The notes under the pieces are model-generated. The model did no database searches, was not told the origin of the DNA, and was given only the letters and a program-made list of their open reading frames with translations. A stretch of DNA of 63,952 nucleotides, counting the filler, from Licmophora abbreviata (lineage: Eukaryota): assembly GCA_900291995.1 (NCBI GenBank). It is 8 parts of 8 records of this genome, joined end to end, with 100 filler letters (N's around TTAATTAATTAA, not from the genome) between each part and the next. Parts side by side here need not be neighbours in the genome. Positions count along the whole stretch, not along the records: positions 10,865 to 34,000 come from OLMU01002069.1; 7 more parts are not named here. The stretch is one strand, 5' to 3'. Made by a program: the position numbers and the translations under genes. Positions 23,223-31,173 of this stretch are shown one piece after another. Each line of letters starts with the position of its first letter. The first letter of the stretch is position 1.

Positions 23223-24371
23223 TTACTTTCTCAGAAGTCTGTGTCGCTTGTTTCGTCGTCGACCCATTCTGTTGTTCCCCCCGGTGCATTGCGGACATAT
23301 GGAACAGGAATAAGTCCAGTCACACTTGGGATAGGCGTCAGGGTCTGAGGAAATCCACGGGGTTGGAATTAAGGCGCACCACCACTTGCACTCATACAAG
23401 GACGGCAAGCTCGGGTCTTTGTCGACAATTGGTGCCATACTTGGAACGGCGGAATCCCTTGTGATTTGTGTAGGTGTCAACGAGGGGGGTGATGACTCAG
23501 ACAATGAGGGGGGCGATGACTCAAGTATGTTGGACGGTGCGATAGATGGAATTGCAGAAGCAACGCTACTTGGCGTGACGGACACACCCATTGACGGGTT
23601 GGATGGCGAAAGCGAGGGTATCATGGATGCGTCGCCGCTGCTTGGCATCTGACTGGAAGTCGGCGACATCGAAGTGGAAGGAGTCAGGGATGGAATGTTG
23701 GACGTCGACGGTGAAAGTGAGATGCTCGGCTGTGGCGTGTCGCTTGCAAACTTTTCCATCGACAGTTCGTATGAAGAATAGTACCAATCATTTTGTCCCC
23801 CTCCTTGATTGTTGGTCACGACTGTCACCTCCAATAGAGCGCCTGCGGTAGTATCGACACGCAGGTCTGAAACAATCGACGTCTTGTCGACACGAGCATT
23901 GTGAGTTAGGCCGGCGACTCCTGGAGAGCAAGCTGCAGACAGCCCAACTGCTTCTCCAGTACTCGGCAGCAGCCATGTTCGGTTGTCCGTAACGCCGAGC
24001 GCTTCTTGCAGGTCTTCGCCATTGAGGCCGCTAAGTCGGAACAGAAAGCCACGAAACACGGACTGTCCATCGGTCGACTCTAGCGTGATCGTATAGTTCT
24101 CTCCTACCAGCAGATTGGTAGTATCGTTAGAAGTCAATAATCGAGAAGAACCGATCCGTACTTGAAAGCCACCTTCTTGCAGCGAACCACTTCCCTCGCT
24201 ACCGTGCATACCATTGCTGGCGTCGCCGATAGCAGCTCCTGTCTGGCAGTGGCCGGCCTGAGTCGGATATGCAATCACTCTATTGTCTCTCTTGAGACTC
24301 AAGAGTAACAACAAGGTCAAGCATACGTGCTTTAATGACATTATCATGATAAGGCCGTTCATAGACGGCAT
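23223..24371 (-). CDS. Secreted Reeler-like domain protein with a Ser/Pro-rich stalk and a C-terminal Cys/Trp module (start codon uncertain)
   Basis: Signal peptide, YPTQAGHC, FRGFLFRL, AGLTHN, LEVTVV, YYSSY. PS-rich repeats, then CKWWC...W...KCDW..SCSICPQC. Confidence 0.7.
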   Translation of the reverse strand: MPSMNGLIMIMSLKHVCLTLLLLLSLKRDNRVIAYPTQAGHCQTGAAIGDASNGMHGSEGSGSLQEGGFQVRIGSSRLLTSNDTTNLLVGENYTITLESTDGQSVFRGFLFRLSGLNGEDLQEALGVTDNRTWLLPSTGEAVGLSAACSPGVAGLTHNARVDKTSIVSDLRVDTTAGALLEVTVVTNNQGGGQNDWYYSSYELSMEKFASDTPQPSISLSPSTSNIPSLTPSTSMSPTSSQMPSSGDASMIPSLSPSNPSMGVSVTPSSVASAIPSIAPSNILESSPPSLSESSPPSLTPTQITRDSAVPSMAPIVDKDPSLPSLYECKWWCALIPTPWISSDPDAYPKCDWTYSCSICPQCTGGNNRMGRRRNKRHRLLRK

Positions 24372-24637: not shown

Positions 24638-27600
24638 ATGGCCAAGCGCAAGAACAAGGCCAAGCGGTCGATGGGAGCACTTCCCAAGGGTCTTCCTGGC
24701 AGAAAGAGGGGTCTACCTTCAGATGTGAATCCTTTCGAGACTCTGTCGAGGCAGAAGCGTCCGAAGCATGAAGTTCACAATCGTGGTACTTCGAAGTCTG
24801 CGACTCCACAGCCGTCTGCACTGGCCAAGAGTCTACAGCGCCGCCGGACACAGTTGAAGGAGACAATGAACCGGTCGAAGAAAGTCAATTCCTTCGTGGA
24901 TAGGCGGATTGGCGAGTACAGCTCATCCATGACTTCTGACGAGCAGATGCTCGCTCGTTTGGTACGAGAACGCAGCCGGCGGAGTACGCGCGTGTCGAAA
25001 TACAGTCTGGATGACAACGATCGAGATGAAGCGCCTGTTCTGACTCACAAGGTAAGAGGAGTCACGTTGCTTCTTTGAAAGAGTCTGGTGCGAACGAGGC
25101 AGTTTCTCACATTGTCATTGTGTCGACCTCTTTATACAGGGACGGGCTATCGATGACTTCAATGCCAAAGATCACGTTATGTTGTCAGATGACGAGGAAG
25201 ATGATAATGGCAACTTGGCTGCAGTCGACACTGAGCTCCATTTTGGTGGAGGATCGATGGGAAGAGCAAAGGGTGATGCGTACGGTCCGTCCTCCGAGAA
25301 TAACATGGCAGACGTGTACTCTCATCGCAAGACGGAACTTGATGACTTAATTGCGAGGCGAAAAGTCCTAAAGGCGGAGCGTATCAAGAGCAGAGAGAAT
25401 CAGACGGAAGCATTCGAGGCCATGGACGAGTCGTTTAAAGAATTGTCATCCATGTTGCAGTTTCGAGACAAAGAGAAAGATCGACGTGCGCGGGAAGAAG
25501 CCAAACGTAAGGGATCTGTATCGCAAGAGGAAAAGGAAATGGCCGAATGGGATAAGGAGATGAAGGAATACTTGTATGAACGTCGAGTGAAAGCTACCGA
25601 TAGGACAAAAACGCCTGAAGAGATTGCCAAGGAGGAATCAGAAAGGCTGCACGAACTCGAGACACGTCGCTTGGCACGAATGAGTGGCGACTTTGAGGAC
25701 GACGACTTTTCAGATATATCAGATGATGACGGTCCAGGCCACAAAGGCGAGAAACGCGAGAGAAAAAGACAAGGAAAACAACAAAGACATCGAAATCCGG
25801 ACGAGCTTGATAGTTCTGAGGATGAACATAAGGACGATGGCCCAAAGGCACAATTCACTGCAGAGGGTCTCGTGTACGTGGACAAGGACGGCAAAATTGT
25901 TGAGAATGCTGCCGACAAGGGAAGCTCGAGTGAAGAAGGCGACTCTGATGTAGAGGGCTCGGAAGACTTAAAGTCTGACGGACTATCGAGCAGTGATCAG
26001 TCTTCTTCAGATGAAGATGAGGGTATAAACAGTTCCATACTTTCGGTAGGGGACCGCGTGCAGGGAAACTATCGCATCAATGAGCAGTTTCAGGGACAAG
26101 ACGCATGGCATGATGGTGTCGTGTCGAAAGTGAACACAGTGGCCAACGGGTCCATCACCTATAATGTTGATTACAATGATGGCGATTTTGAGGAGGACAT
26201 GGAGCCCCAGAATGTACGACTGGTCGCGAAGTCTGAAGAAGAGAAGGAAAGGGAGGATAGCCAAAAGGACGAGGCAGTGCGCCTTAAACTCAAGCGTCAA
26301 AAAGCCCAAAAGAAAGCTAGGTACGTGTTGTTTGGAAGCGAAGTTGTCGATGGTACCGGTGCAAGCAATTTTCCGTCGTGCGCTTTGGGCCTATGCCTAT
26401 CTGCCTCACCAGCGACCGGGGAATCGTTGGCGTATTGCCTGTTCGGTTCTCTCGCGACAACCGCGCGCACCCACAAAAAGTCGACGTGCCTCATAGTACA
26501 CGCGAAAAGGTTTCAATTCCGTGTGTCTCCATGGTAGTCACATTCTCATGGTGCGTTATTTTACTATCCTTCTGTTGTAAAAGGCGAGAAATCCCATTTG
26601 TCTTCGAAGTTCCTACAACACTCGAAGCTTTACACGATATGATTGGAAACTACGCTTCGACGGGCGAAGATGCATCGTTGATTATAGAGCGTATTCACTC
26701 CTCCAACTCGGTTAGGTTGAACAAGAATAACAAGGAGAAGATGCAAAACTTTTATGACGTGTTGCTTCGCAGATTTATGGCAGTCGGAGACGCGATCTCC
26801 GCTTCCGGCGACGGAGGCACGACGCTTGGTCGATTCCAGCAACTCGATGCTTTGACCAAGACACTGTATAAAATGTCGCTAGATTCGCCCAATTGTGCCG
26901 GTGCTGTCTGGGGGAGACGCCTCGGAATTCTTCAGAACGCCCATGCAAAGCGATTGCGCGATGCCGCGTTTTCAGCGGAAGACGAGGATAACTTTACGGC
27001 TTGGCCTTCAACGGGAACTGTGTTGCTTCTCCGAGCTATGGGACACATATTTCCTGTCACGGATCATCGTCACATCGTTGTAACACCCGGCCTATTGCTC
27101 CTTGGACAAATTGTATCGCAGACTCCAATAAAATCACTTTCCGACATTGCCACGGGAGTCATTTGCAGCGGTATCATGATCCAATTCACCCGGGATGCGA
27201 AGCGTGTCGCCCCCGAAGCCCATGCATTTCTTGCGGATGCGCTTCGTCTCTTTTCTCCGCACAAGCGGTCCAGCAACAGGTTCCACGCGGTCCCAAGCCT
27301 CGAAGTGGCCTCGTCGACCTTACCTTACCTTCGTGCAGATGTGGCAGCTCTCGCCGGCGATGCCGAGATCCCGCGCTTGAGCTTGGAGAAGGCATTCATG
27401 GACGAGGACACCGCATCTGCTAGTGTTCTTTGTGCTGCGCTCCATTTAGTTGAGAAATCAGCTCAGACTCTTGGGGGGTCGCTGCAAAATGGAGAAGCCG
27501 AGGCTTATGCTGAAATTACGGAAAGTCTGCTTTGTTTAACGAGTAAGAAGAGTATCCTCCCGAAAGCTATTTCAGACAAGGTTGCCAGTGCAGCCACAGC

Positions 27601-28051
27601 CGTCTCCGATGCGTGCAAACTTGACCAGCCTCGTCAGCCACTGAGGAGACGGGCCGGACCATCTGCCAGTGAAAGGGCGATCAAGACTCTAGCACCCCGC
27701 ATAGAAGATCCATCACGATATTCCTTGTCCAAGGACAAGGGCAAGTCATCAGTCCAAACCGCCATGGATCGAACTCGCCGCGAGTACAAGCGCGAGCACA
27801 AGGCGGTTGCCCGTGAACTTCGACTGGATGGCGCTTTCATTGAATACGAGCGTCGCAGAGAAAAGGATCGCAAGGATACAAAGGCGCGTGAGAAGCGTCA
27901 CAAGAACTACGCCTGGCTGGAGGGCGAACAGGCAGTAATGAATCAACAAGTCGCACAAGGTGGGGGGCTGCTATCGGGTGGCGGAATGGGCGCCGCTCGA
28001 AACAAAGCTCGAAGCGGAAAGCTGGGAATCAAGAAGGGAGGAAAATTCTAG
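24638..28051 (+). CDS. NOP14: Nucleolar protein 14 (SSU processome). Exons ~24638-25051, 25140-26320, 26584-28051
   Basis: NPFE, NSFVDRRIGE, LTHK|G, HFGGG, ATDRTKTPEE, LETRRLARM, IPFVFEVP, NKEKMQNFY and REYKREHKAVARELRLD. Confidence 0.93.
26375..26545 (+). ncRNA. Candidate intronic box H/ACA snoRNA in NOP14 intron 2, predicted to guide pseudouridylation in LSU rRNA helix 69
   Basis: The 5' hairpin is closed by GTGCGC(26378)/GCGCAC(26465). H box ACAAAA at 26473-26478. The 3' hairpin has lower stem GAC(G)TGCC/GGTAGTC, pocket TCATAGT (26491-97) and CTCC (26527-30), and upper stem ACACGCG/CGTGTGT. ACA lies at 26540-42, 13 nt after the upper stem. The pocket is complementary to rRNA GGAG-U-A-ACUAUGA. 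Confidence 0.6.
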
Positions 28052-28185: not shown

Positions 28186-29799
28186 TTACTTTGCTCCGAT
28201 CGCCACCAAGAGCTTGTTGTTTTCGTCCAATAGCGACTTTTCCATCATACGATAGTCGTGCATCATGACGGCGATCTCTTCTTGTGTCTTTTGGTGTTCC
28301 TCTTCAATCTGCTGTTCTAGCGCCTTGACCTCCATCTCCCCTTGGTCGACACGAGCCATCCCATCACGATGATCCTTTTCAACGTTCAACAATTGCTGTT
28401 GGACGACTTCCAGCGAATCTCCAGCCGCATCCATCTTCACTTTATGCTGCTTGCGCACATGCACCAGTTTTTCTTCGGCACGATGCAAGGCACCCTCAGC
28501 CTCTCCCATATCAGCCTCGACGTCGGCCGTCTTCTTTCGAATGGCAGCCTGTTCCGACTGTGTAGACGCGATTTGGGATTTGACATGCGCCGCTTTTTGC
28601 GCCGTCTCCAATACTTGCTCGACCATGGTCGTCGTTTCAGGGACATCTTGGATGGCTTGCGTCACGTGCAGAATCTTGGTCTTGGTTTTCTGCAGTTTGT
28701 CTTCAAGCACCTTGATTTCCGCGCGCTCCTGCTCGAGTCTCAGAGCATGCTGCTCGAGTTCGTGCTTGCGACGATCCGGAGACGACACAATCTTGGCCGC
28801 CAGCTGCCGTTTCTCTTGCTCTGCCTCTTCCAGCGCCAGTTCGGCAGTCGCCACGTCATCCTTGAGATCATTGGCGTGCTTCTTGAGCTCGGTCGCTTCC
28901 TCCCGCATGCTCGCCTGAATCTTGTTGTGACGTGCAATCTCCACCTCGAGTTCTTCGCATTCGCGCTCGAGATCGTACATTTCTTGGAACTTGGTCGACG
29001 ACTCTTCCTTGGTCTGTTCGAGGGATGCTGTCTTTTGGGCATTTTCCCCGTATACTTCGGTCAAGGCTTCCGACAACAAGACGCGCTACAATGGAAAAGA
29101 GTGACAAGTGCGTTGAGGGTGAGACTTGTCAAGACGATCTACATACGACGACGACGACATCACCCCCACACGTACTTCACTGTTGAGTTCACTGTAAAAG
29201 CGCAAGTGCTCTTCTCGAAACTTGGCGAGATTGATGATTGCCGACAGCTGACATCGAAATCGCTTGGCCGTCGGTGCATGCAGATCTTTCCATCCAAAGT
29301 CGTGGAGTCCGCACGTTTCCATGCACTTGCGAAGCTCAATGTAAAACTTGAGATCACTCAAGTCCTCGTGGACCTCGGGGAACTTGAACTCGGAGGCCTG
29401 GGCTACCGCTTGAGGGGAAGGAGCAAAGTCGTCTTCTGTCAAACCACAGCAAACTTCGAGCTATGAAAAATTGAGAAGCGAGTGAGAGGAGAGTGGGATC
29501 GAACAGGCGAGCGATGGAGAAGGTCAGAAAACGGCATGAGAAAGCACAAGTGAGTCTTCTGTACAAGACACTATGGATAAGACCGAAAGGAGCAACAGCA
29601 CCATCGTTCTCTTAGTCTATGACACACGTACCAGCTTGACAAAGACCTTGCGAACACGCTCCTTGTGACGGTTCGGCTCGGCCAGTTCATTCTTCGTCAC
29701 ATCGATTTCCAGCTCGCTCATGCATTGTAGAATGTCCGAGTGTTTGAGAATGGGAAAGATAAACTGCGTCGGGGTCTGGGAATGCGTCGTTAAGTCCAT
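28186..29799 (-). CDS. NUF2: Kinetochore protein Nuf2 (Ndc80 complex), 3 exons
   Basis: [51 protein letters not shown], then a long coiled coil. Confidence 0.88.
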
Positions 29800-30144
29800 G
29801 GTGAAATCACTGTTTCGTTGTTGCCCTCTTTTTTTTTGTGGAACCTTGCTGTCATTGGTGCAATTCTTGATTTAAATGCTGTCCTCGACTTTTTTGCTAC
29901 GTAAGATGCAGTAGCGATTCTACGACCATCGTATACAACGACTTCTACTTGCTTCGGCTCAGTACCCAATCCTCATGGCCACGAAACCTTCAATTTTCCA
30001 AAGAACAATTCCAGTTTCAATTTCTCCATGTGCCGCGTCCTCATGGAGATCGCATCGCCTTACCATCGCAGCCCTTTTACAGCTACACTAGTTCACCCCC
30101 AAGCCGCTAAAGACGGATTCACATGAGCAATTTTTATATCAACC

Positions 30145-31173
30145 ATGTCTCCAGCCTTCTTTACCAAGAAACAAAAGACGCAGATGCGAAAGCGTCGACG
30201 AAAACACAAACTATTGACCAATGATGATGATGCTGATGGTGGCATCAGTCAGCAGGAATATCCTCCCACAAAGCGACTGCGTCAAGACAAGACCTCCGAG
30301 GGAACTCTTTCGCAGCAGCAACAACCAAAGACGATCACCATACCGGCGAACTTGTCTGGAAAAGCGTCGCGCAAGTTTCGAAAAGACGAGCGTCGGAGGA
30401 CGCGAGCCGCGGGTGGCGAGGAGAGTCTGTTGACGTTTGTCGTGGAAGGACAAGAAGACGATGGGAAGCCAGACGAGCAAATGCATATAAAGCAAAAGAA
30501 AAAGTCATTTCCTCGCATCAACGAGCTACTGCAGCAACAAAAGGAACAAGAACGTCTCGAGCAAGAACAGGAGAAGCGACGCGCGGCGGAGGCTCGCATA
30601 CCGGACGAAATAAAATCACGGTATATTGCACTCGATTGTGAAATGGTGGGCATTGGAGCCAATGGAAAGCAATCTGCGCTTGCGCGAGTCTCCATGGTGG
30701 ACTGGAATCTCGAGACAGTCCTTGACACCTTCGTCCAAGTGCCTTCCAAAGTGACAGACTTTCGAACCTTTGTCAGTGGTGTGCGTGCCGCGGATCTCAA
30801 GAACGCAATGGATGTCGTGCTTTGTCGGCAAAAAGTGTCTGACCTGTTGCGAAATAAGATTTTGGTGGGTCACGCCTTAAAGAATGATTTACAAGCGCTC
30901 CTCTTGCAGCATCCGAAACATGATATTCGAGATACAGCCAAGTACAGACCCTTTCAACGTTCGTCGGGACCGAATGGAGGGAAATGGCGGCCCCGCAAGT
31001 TGCGAGATTTGGTGAAAGAACACGTGGGCAAGTCGATTCAAGTCGAGGGCGAATCGCACGATTCCGTAGAGGATGCGCAGGCAACCATGGAGTTATTTCA
31101 TAGAGTGCGAGAGGTATGGGAGAAGGAATTGGAAGCCAAGCAGAAAAAGAAGAGCCGTAAAGGAAAGAAGTGA
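30145..31173 (+). CDS. REX4: RNA exonuclease 4 (DEDDh)
   Basis: YIALDCEMVG, LARVS, VTDFRTFVSG, ILVGHALKNDL, IRDTA and HDSVEDA, with a basic N-terminus. Confidence 0.92.
   Translation: MSPAFFTKKQKTQMRKRRRKHKLLTNDDDADGGISQQEYPPTKRLRQDKTSEGTLSQQQQPKTITIPANLSGKASRKFRKDERRRTRAAGGEESLLTFVVEGQEDDGKPDEQMHIKQKKKSFPRINELLQQQKEQERLEQEQEKRRAAEARIPDEIKSRYIALDCEMVGIGANGKQSALARVSMVDWNLETVLDTFVQVPSKVTDFRTFVSGVRAADLKNAMDVVLCRQKVSDLLRNKILVGHALKNDLQALLLQHPKHDIRDTAKYRPFQRSSGPNGGKWRPRKLRDLVKEHVGKSIQVEGESHDSVEDAQATMELFHRVREVWEKELEAKQKKKSRKGKK

What the first reader, a model, noticed from the sequence alone, without database searches (positions are those of the whole stretch)
26375..26545. Hidden box H/ACA snoRNA in a NOP14 intron, aimed at LSU rRNA helix 69
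NOP14 intron 2 (26321-26583, 263 nt) is about three times longer than most introns here and shows a hairpin-H(ACAAAA)-hairpin-ACA layout. In the 3' hairpin the pocket strands TCATAGT and CTCC flank a 7-bp upper stem. They pair (7+4 bp) with the conserved eukaryotic LSU sequence GGAG-U-A-ACUAUGA, leaving UA unpaired, with the ACA box 13 nt downstream. That U corresponds to E. coli 23S Psi1911 in helix 69 (established). Ribosome-biogenesis genes are typical snoRNA hosts. I could not assign a target for the 5' hairpin.
Basis: partly seen in the sequence, partly recalled or inferred. Interest (0 to 1): 0.7.

Follow-up and report, generated by a model that had tools for sequence, protein, structure and literature searches.

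The report
Conserved intronic pseudouridine guide in diatoms
An intron of a diatom ribosome-assembly gene (NOP14) carries a small guide RNA of a well-known kind that most likely directs one uridine-to-pseudouridine change in a key helix of the large ribosomal RNA; it is real and widely kept in diatoms, and its only unusual part is a branched half with a conserved loop of unexplained role.

Summary
Confirmed and extended. NOP14 intron 2 (26321-26583) holds a box H/ACA RNA. Its 3' pocket pairs 7+4 with this genome's own LSU helix 69, exposing the U equal to E. coli 1911. All 21 long (223-566 nt) orthologous introns among 44 diatom-type loci keep ATAGT...GTCTCC with ACA exactly 13 nt on, and the stems covary. 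The 7 short introns lack the RNA and fall in one Chaetoceros-containing clade. Corrections: the RNA starts near 26358, not 26375 (about 188 nt), and the invariant guide core is 5+4 bp. The 5' half shows no shared target. It folds into two arms, one capped by a covarying GC-GU(U/A/C)(U/C)U-GC hairpin 31-41 nt before the H box. Guides for this U are known or predicted in human (SNORA23), Arabidopsis (snoR92) and Trypanosoma; Rfam does not recognise the diatom RNA. Expression and modification are untested. The scan had noted other intronic diatom snoRNAs but not this sequence. Verdict: new member of a known class; a second, protein-docking role for the 5' half is possible (about 0.25).

The parts
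24638..28051 (+). NOP14 host gene: exons 24638-25051, 25140-26320, 26584-28051
   Evidence: open 1020-aa spliced frame; Pfam Nop14 in each exon; 49 homologues, named ones called nucleolar protein 14
26321..26583 (+). intron 2 (263 nt, GT-AG), host of the RNA
   Evidence: an intron at the same codon position in 28 of 44 related loci
26358..26545 (+). predicted mature box H/ACA RNA, about 188 nt (5' end inferred from the basal helix, 3' end as ACA+3)
   Evidence: model R1 hit 26418-26545 (the window was in the training set)
26358..26471 (+). branched 5' domain: basal helix 26358-26362/26467-26471, stem 26375-26380/26453-26458, variable arm A 26381-26414, arm B 26418-26452; no conserved guide
   Evidence: in the window this fold lies 2.3 kcal/mol above the minimum
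26429..26439 (+). conserved small hairpin capping arm B (loop GUAUU here; GUUUU in 11 of 19)
   Evidence: invariant G-C-G-U and U-G in 19 of 19; compensatory changes in the two outer pairs; pairing probability at least 0.9 in 16 of 19
26473..26478 (+). H box ACAAAA
   Evidence: AnAnnA 0-2 nt after the basal helix in 14 of 19, AnAnnG in 5 of 19
26483..26539 (+). 3' guide hairpin: lower stem 26483-26490/26533-26539, upper stem 26498-26504/26520-26526
26491..26497 (+). 5' pocket strand, pairs with LSU ACUAUGA; invariant core 26493-26497
26527..26530 (+). 3' pocket strand, pairs with LSU GGAG
   Evidence: invariant in 22 of 22
26540..26542 (+). ACA box, 13 nt after the first paired base of the 3' pocket strand
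   Evidence: same spacing in 22 of 22

Best explanation
An intron-encoded box H/ACA snoRNA. It is made with the NOP14 pre-mRNA and released by splicing, debranching and trimming (inferred from the class; PMC9351541 passages). It binds Cbf5/dyskerin, Nop10, Nhp2 and Gar1 through the H and ACA boxes (inferred). Its 3' pocket pairs on both sides of one U in LSU helix 69, the E. coli 1911 / human 3737 position, and presents it for conversion to pseudouridine (pairing and geometry shown by sequence and conservation; the modification itself inferred). The 5' half guides nothing that is conserved; it supplies the second hairpin and H box, and its conserved capped arm most likely serves folding, stability or binding of one protein (inferred). 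Sitting in a ribosome-assembly gene ties its output to ribosome synthesis (inferred).
For: Pocket, ACA and 13-nt spacing kept in 21 of 21 long orthologous introns although the upper part of the hairpin varies from 29 to 287 nt. Invariant columns of the 3' hairpin are the two guide strands, the base of the upper stem, one lower-stem G and ACA (18 sequences, L030 left out). 8 of 11 pairs show changes on both sides; 77% of cells pair against 23-43% in slid controls; 0 of 500 shuffles as high on four of five measures (70 of 500 on the fifth). H69 is the best site in 18 of 19 RNAs and tied in 1, with 9-13 pairs, above the 8-pair minimum in the abstract of PMC6049503. The U lies opposite the 14th base before ACA, as in the class rule (PMC7038934 passage); 13-nt spacers are called relatively frequent (PMC8763049 passage). 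A model built from 16 RNAs finds the three left-out ones (77, 61, 27 bits) and nothing in the other 26 loci. The same U is pseudouridine in human (Psi3737) and has guides in human, Arabidopsis (predicted) and Trypanosoma.
Against: No RNA evidence and no pseudouridine map for a diatom were seen. The whole intron folds no better than shuffles. The H box ends in G in 5 of 19. Two upper-stem positions pair in only 6 and 9 of 18 sequences. One diatom clade has lost the RNA from this intron, and yeast lacks this modification, so it is dispensable or mobile. All targets were scored against this genome's rRNA, not each species' own.
Confidence: 0.88

Rival explanations
1. A bifunctional H/ACA RNA: the 3' hairpin guides the helix-69 pseudouridine, while the branched 5' domain is a docking platform whose conserved U-rich loop recruits a non-core protein and helps hold or fold the pre-60S particle, in the manner of yeast snR37. 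This adds to the best explanation rather than replacing it.
For: The loop hairpin is nearly as invariant as the guide, covaries, sits 31-41 nt before the H box in 19 of 19, and the 5' half has no shared target (at most 5 of 19 RNAs). In snR37 one hairpin lacks a pocket, carries a three-helix junction, and bases of a short branch helix stack on Upa1-Upa2 (PMC13015370 sections 10 and 12).
Against: No protein partner was identified. In snR37 the junction replaces the pocket, whereas here it lies about 17-22 nt above the H box, over the pocket position (my reading). A short stable hairpin can be kept for folding alone. Guide-less hairpins are common: half of the 28 yeast H/ACA RNAs guide one site. 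One clade lacks the RNA in this intron.
Confidence: 0.25
2. The 5' half is a second guide for a site not captured here (another snRNA, a non-canonical pocket, or lineage-specific rRNA sites).
For: Human SNORA23 is listed with two targets, 28S-3737 and -4331. Internal loops exist at about the pocket position in several RNAs. Only SSU, ITS/5.8S/LSU and U2 were tested.
Against: The strands at 12-17 nt before the H box are not conserved in sequence, and no target is shared by more than 5 of 19 RNAs; the shared ones are G/U-rich matches.
Confidence: 0.08
3. A conserved pre-mRNA structure that regulates NOP14 splicing, not a free snoRNA; the match to helix 69 is incidental or a relic.
For: The possible branch point lies only 6-9 nt after ACA in 5 of 19 introns, the window included, so a bound RNP could affect splicing. 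The intron has no stop in one frame in the window.
Against: Selection keeps exactly the bases that pair with rRNA and the 13-nt spacing to ACA, which a splicing element would not need. The intron persists without the element in one clade.
Confidence: 0.04

Closest known systems
Human SNORA23 (ACA23; Rfam RF00319, 184 positions)
   Same: Box H/ACA, intronic, listed for 28S-3737, the same helix-69 U (PMC6466398 table row; spacing 3737/3741/3743/3747/3749); similar length.
   Different: Host is IPO7, not NOP14; a second target 4331 is listed; the Rfam model finds nothing in this genome at E 10 nor in 13 related loci. Same job; common descent not shown.
Arabidopsis snoR92
   Same: Predicted guide for 25S U2244, aligned to human U3737, with no yeast counterpart (PMC8351944 supplementary row).
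   Different: The site is predicted, not mapped, in that table; its sequence and structure were not available here (a text search for snoR92 gave 0 papers).
Trypanosoma brucei TB9Cs2H1
   Same: Guides Psi518, the first of five helix-69 pseudouridines spaced 0, 4, 6, 10, 12 (PMC10662448 passage), hence the same position by my mapping.
   Different: Encoded by a solitary gene, not an intron; single-hairpin form of trypanosome guides is recalled, not checked.
Saccharomyces cerevisiae snR191 in the NOG2 intron
   Same: H/ACA RNA in an intron (PMC9351541 passage) that guides helix-69 pseudouridines; NOG2 as a ribosome-assembly gene is recalled.
   Different: Targets 2258 and 2260 (E. coli 1915, 1917), not 1911; different host.
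Saccharomyces cerevisiae snR37 (bifunctional H/ACA RNA)
   Same: One guiding hairpin and one guide-less branched hairpin (PMC13015370).
   Different: 386 nt, target U2944, the guide is the 5' hairpin, the junction replaces the pocket, and partner proteins are shown; none is shown here.

Membership tests
box H/ACA guide snoRNA | hairpin-hinge-hairpin-tail layout | tested here: met
   basal helix and 3' hairpin supported by pair counts; the 5' half is branched rather than a simple hairpin
box H/ACA guide snoRNA | H box ANANNA in the hinge | tested here: met
   ACAAAA in the window; AnAnnA in 14 of 19 and AnAnnG in 5 of 19, 0-2 nt after the basal helix
box H/ACA guide snoRNA | ACA box directly after the 3' hairpin | tested here: met
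   22 of 22
box H/ACA guide snoRNA | bipartite guide of at least 8 pairs leaving U-N unpaired | tested here: met
   11 pairs in the window, 9-13 in 19 RNAs; minimum 8 from the abstract of PMC6049503
box H/ACA guide snoRNA | target U opposite the 14th-15th base before the box | tested here: met
   13-nt spacer, U opposite the 14th base, in 22 of 22 (rule)
box H/ACA guide snoRNA | stable RNA ending 3 nt after ACA, bound by Cbf5/Nop10/Nhp2/Gar1, nucleolar | not testable with these tools
   no RNA holder listed; the contigs laid do not cover the intron
box H/ACA guide snoRNA | target U is pseudouridine and depends on the guide | not testable with these tools
   no diatom modification map among the listings
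Rfam SNORA23 (RF00319) | match to the covariance model | tested here: not met
   0 matches at E 10 in the genome; none
scaRNA (H/ACA type) | CAB box UGAG in an apical loop and an snRNA target | tested here: not met
   the conserved apical loop is GUHYU; no shared U2 target; other snRNAs not tested
snR37-like bifunctional H/ACA RNA | guide-less branched hairpin that recruits non-core proteins | tested here: inconclusive
   branching and lack of a shared guide seen; protein binding not testable
telomerase RNA with H/ACA domain | conserved telomere template 5' of the H/ACA domain | tested here: not met
   no hexamer of the recalled TTAGGG template in the window intron; scattered hits in 7 of 18 others, inspected only as a list; the 3' hairpin carries an rRNA guide

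The most novel reading that the evidence does not exclude
A diatom-wide bifunctional snoRNA: besides guiding the helix-69 pseudouridine, its Y-shaped 5' domain presents an invariant U-rich loop that docks a dedicated non-core protein, as the branches of yeast snR37 do, so that the RNA also scaffolds or times pre-60S assembly at the future intersubunit bridge. Being made from the intron of NOP14 (recalled as a small-subunit assembly factor), it would couple the two subunit pathways. The Chaetoceros-containing clade, which lacks it in this intron, would be a natural loss or relocation experiment.
Probability: 0.25. Interest if true: 0.6.

Novelty: new member of a known kind. Interest (0 to 1): 0.35.

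Why it matters
Diatom snoRNAs are almost uncatalogued in the papers that I could search, and Rfam misses this one. The RNA gives a specific, testable prediction of a pseudouridine at a helix-69 site that bacteria make with a stand-alone enzyme (recalled), that human, plant and trypanosome cells assign to guides, and that yeast lacks. It adds a stramenopile point to the history of that modification, a new host gene, and a clean case of a snoRNA leaving an intron in one clade while the intron stays. The conserved loop in the guide-less half is a small, easily mutated candidate for a second function. None of this overturns known biology.

Tried and rejected
Rfam: no snoRNA match over the intron at E 10 (two chance hits elsewhere), none in 13 related loci, SNORA23 model blank in the genome. 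Expression: no RNA holder listed; four runs laid as contigs left the intron uncovered; neither is evidence. Second copy in the genome: DNA search gave only the locus itself; the pocket pattern gave 4 matches against 8 in the control; a search of the genome with the RNA model was not possible. The loop as a general signal of diatom H/ACA RNAs: loop-plus-H-box pattern 70 matches against 54 in the control, uninformative. The loop as an antisense element: several rRNA sites pair equally well through G-U pairs (17 of 19 RNAs at five different sites), and its flanks covary as a hairpin, so rejected. A 5' guide: no shared target. Alternative target SSU 1288: 9 pairs against 11 in the window, and the variable base after CUCC favours helix 69 when it is C or U. 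Telomerase RNA and scaRNA: rejected (membership table). RNAalifold on the 5' alignment recovers only the small hairpin, because the arms differ in length and L004 is misaligned at its 5' end; the two-armed shape rests on single-sequence folds. Relocated copy in the short-intron clade: none within the DNA held around NOP14; their genomes could not be searched. Literature: searches listed no paper describing this RNA or NOP14 as a snoRNA host; most subscription papers are not in the library, and a brown-algal snoRNA catalogue that I recall did not appear. In the Ostreococcus supplement the terms Nop14, SNORA23, ACA23 and snoR92 had no hits.

Full report
Observation. The host gene is NOP14: exons 24638-25051, 25140-26320 and 26584-28051 give an open frame of 1020 residues, each exon matches Pfam Nop14, and 49 homologues, mostly diatom where named, align across the second junction. 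Intron 2 is 263 nt; intron 1 is 88 nt. The genome's own LSU rRNA carries the target. Among 1589 U in the SSU and the ITS/5.8S/LSU stretch it is the only site that pairs on both sides by Watson-Crick pairs alone (4+7); 0 of 1500 random pockets reached 11 pairs. Two results do not help the reading: the intron folds no better than its shuffles (z 0.09), and Rfam reports nothing there.

Which U. The diatom helix reproduces the E. coli pairs 1906-1924, 1907-1923, 1910-1920 and 1911-1919 quoted in PMC3973299 (passages), so the exposed U is 1911 (my mapping). Yeast 2258 and 2260 equal 1915 and 1917, and yeast has four pseudouridines in this helix, none at 2254 (bioRxiv 10.1101/2024.02.02.578723, passages). 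Human has Psi3737/3741/3743/3747/3749 (bioRxiv 10.1101/2024.01.08.574649, one passage), with SNORA23 in IPO7 listed for 3737 (PMC6466398, table row). Arabidopsis U2244 is predicted for snoR92 and aligned to human 3737 with no yeast site (PMC8351944, supplementary row). Trypanosoma Psi518 is guided by TB9Cs2H1 (PMC10662448, passages).

Conservation. One metagenome scan with a profile of the start of exon 3 gave 47 loci. Three (L043, L045, L048) begin inside the match and were dropped. Of the other 44, 21 have a long intron at the same codon position (223-566 nt), 7 a short one (69-113 nt) and 16 none (many of these are transcript-sized contigs). All 21 long introns hold ATAGT, GTCTCC and an ACA exactly 13 nt after the first C of CTCC, although the part between the guide strands varies from 29 to 287 nt. 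After dropping three near-duplicates (L015, L020, L042), 19 distinct RNAs remain with the window. In the 3' hairpin (18 aligned, L030 left out for its long insert) the invariant columns are the guide strands, the base of the upper stem, one lower-stem G and ACA. 8 of 11 named pairs change on both sides; 77% of cells pair, against 71% in shuffles (0 of 500 as high) and 23-43% in slid controls; the count of further pair types is not above shuffles (70 of 500), and two upper-stem positions pair in only 6 and 9 of 18. Related sequences can beat the shuffles without structure, so the slid control and the fixed spacing carry more weight. Scored against this genome's rRNA, helix 69 is the best site in 18 of 19 RNAs and tied in 1, with 9-13 pairs; the invariant core is 5+4. 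A covariance model from 16 RNAs finds the window and all 21 long introns, including the left-out L004, L016 and L030 (77, 61, 27 bits), and nothing in the other 26 loci.

The 5' half. A basal helix GGU(G)/(C)ACC closes the domain directly before the H box, which moves the 5' end to about 26358 and the length to 188 nt (173-253 nt in relatives, 441 in L030, with L008 corrected to 174). The H box follows 0-2 nt later, AnAnnA in 14 of 19 and AnAnnG in 5. With three pairs forced, 16 of 19 domains fold with two hairpin loops, mostly as a three-way junction, and in 16 of 19 the unconstrained minimum already contains those pairs. The window's own minimum differs; the family-like fold costs 2.3 kcal/mol more. 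Arm A varies freely. Arm B ends in a small hairpin with invariant G-C-G-U and U-G, loop GUUUU in 11, GUUCU in 3, GUCUU in 3 and GUAUU in 2, compensatory changes in its two outer pairs, pairing probability at least 0.9 in 16 of 19, always 31-41 nt before the H box. The strands at pocket distance are not conserved, and no target in SSU, LSU or U2 is shared by more than 5 of 19.

Distribution. In a quick tree (the careful search did not finish; L031 and L042 skipped) all 7 short-intron loci lie in one clade (SH-aLRT 97) with a Chaetoceros protein, while long introns occur beside Thalassiosira, Stephanodiscus, Fistulifera, Nitzschia and Pseudo-nitzschia proteins. The simplest reading is an RNA present early in diatoms and lost from, or moved out of, this intron once (inference; not tested with a rooted one-clade test). 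Four distant loci have no intron here and no hit. No second copy was seen in this genome.

Mechanism. Shown: layout, boxes, guide pairing, spacing, covariation. Inferred from the class: release from the spliced intron by debranching and trimming (PMC9351541, passages), binding of the four core proteins, and isomerisation of the U that lies opposite the 14th base before ACA (PMC7038934 and PMC8763049, passages; minimum of 8 pairs from the abstract of PMC6049503). In E. coli Psi1911 stabilises the loop-closing pair of helix 69 by about 1 kcal/mol; a like role is expected. In Ostreococcus 33% of hosted snoRNAs sit in ribosome-biogenesis genes (PMC7671301, passage), so the host is of an expected type. 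Confidence 0.88. The role of the capped arm is open. The closest precedent is yeast snR37, where a guide-less branched hairpin and bases of a short branch helix bind Upa1-Upa2 and scaffold pre-60S particles (PMC13015370: abstract, passages, sections 10 and 12). Nothing here shows such a partner, and stability alone could explain the hairpin; I put the bifunctional reading at 0.25.

Novelty. The class, the target site and this kind of host are all known. The RNA itself is in no Rfam family tested, and five searches (listings, plus passages of PMC4247016) showed no description of it or of NOP14 as a host; the library lacks most subscription papers, and supplements of bioRxiv preprints could not be seen. 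Earlier notes of this scan describe other intronic diatom snoRNAs (unchecked), none with this sequence or in this genome. Expression could not be examined. Verdict: a real, well-supported new member of the box H/ACA guide class, functional counterpart of SNORA23 but not a member of that Rfam family by the test run; interest 0.35.

Noticed in passing
window 26040-26190: NOP14 exon 2 encodes a Tudor-like domain just before the host intron (Pfam Tudor_5, E 4e-05, below the curated cut-off); the same family is marked in many diatom NOP14 proteins. A Tudor insert in Nop14 is not something I recall from yeast or human.
   Followed up: partly
L030:1712-1998: The 3' hairpin carries a 287-nt, GC-rich, multi-branched insert between the guide strands, yet pocket and 13-nt spacing are intact; no Rfam match.
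   Followed up: partly
L004, L016, L018, L021, L023, L031, apex of the 3' hairpin: These RNAs share an extra motif close to TTGACCC(T/A)ACT on the 3' side of a lengthened upper stem; most of them group with Thalassiosirales proteins. Role unknown.
   Followed up: no
window 26545-26549: A possible branch point (CTCAT) begins at the predicted 3' end of the RNA; a CTNAY motif lies 6-9 nt after ACA in 5 of 19 introns.
   Followed up: partly
L003, L007, L010, L011, L017, L022, L024: Same intron position but only 69-113 nt and no RNA; all in one clade with a Chaetoceros protein. L012, a 17-kb contig in that clade, has no intron at this position.
   Followed up: partly
window 26321-26583: The intron has no stop in the frame of exon 3 and the exon 2 frame runs on to 26537; retention would still shift the frame, as 263 is not a multiple of 3.
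   Followed up: no
window 28186-31173: Neighbours: a Nuf2-family gene on the minus strand and an RNase T-family exonuclease gene at 30142-31173, the latter resembling REX4 (recalled label), another ribosome-processing factor two genes from NOP14.
   Followed up: partly
window 23223-24368 (minus): An ORF head-to-head with NOP14, with a signal-like N terminus and a Ser/Pro-rich stretch; no Pfam match at E 0.01.
   Followed up: partly
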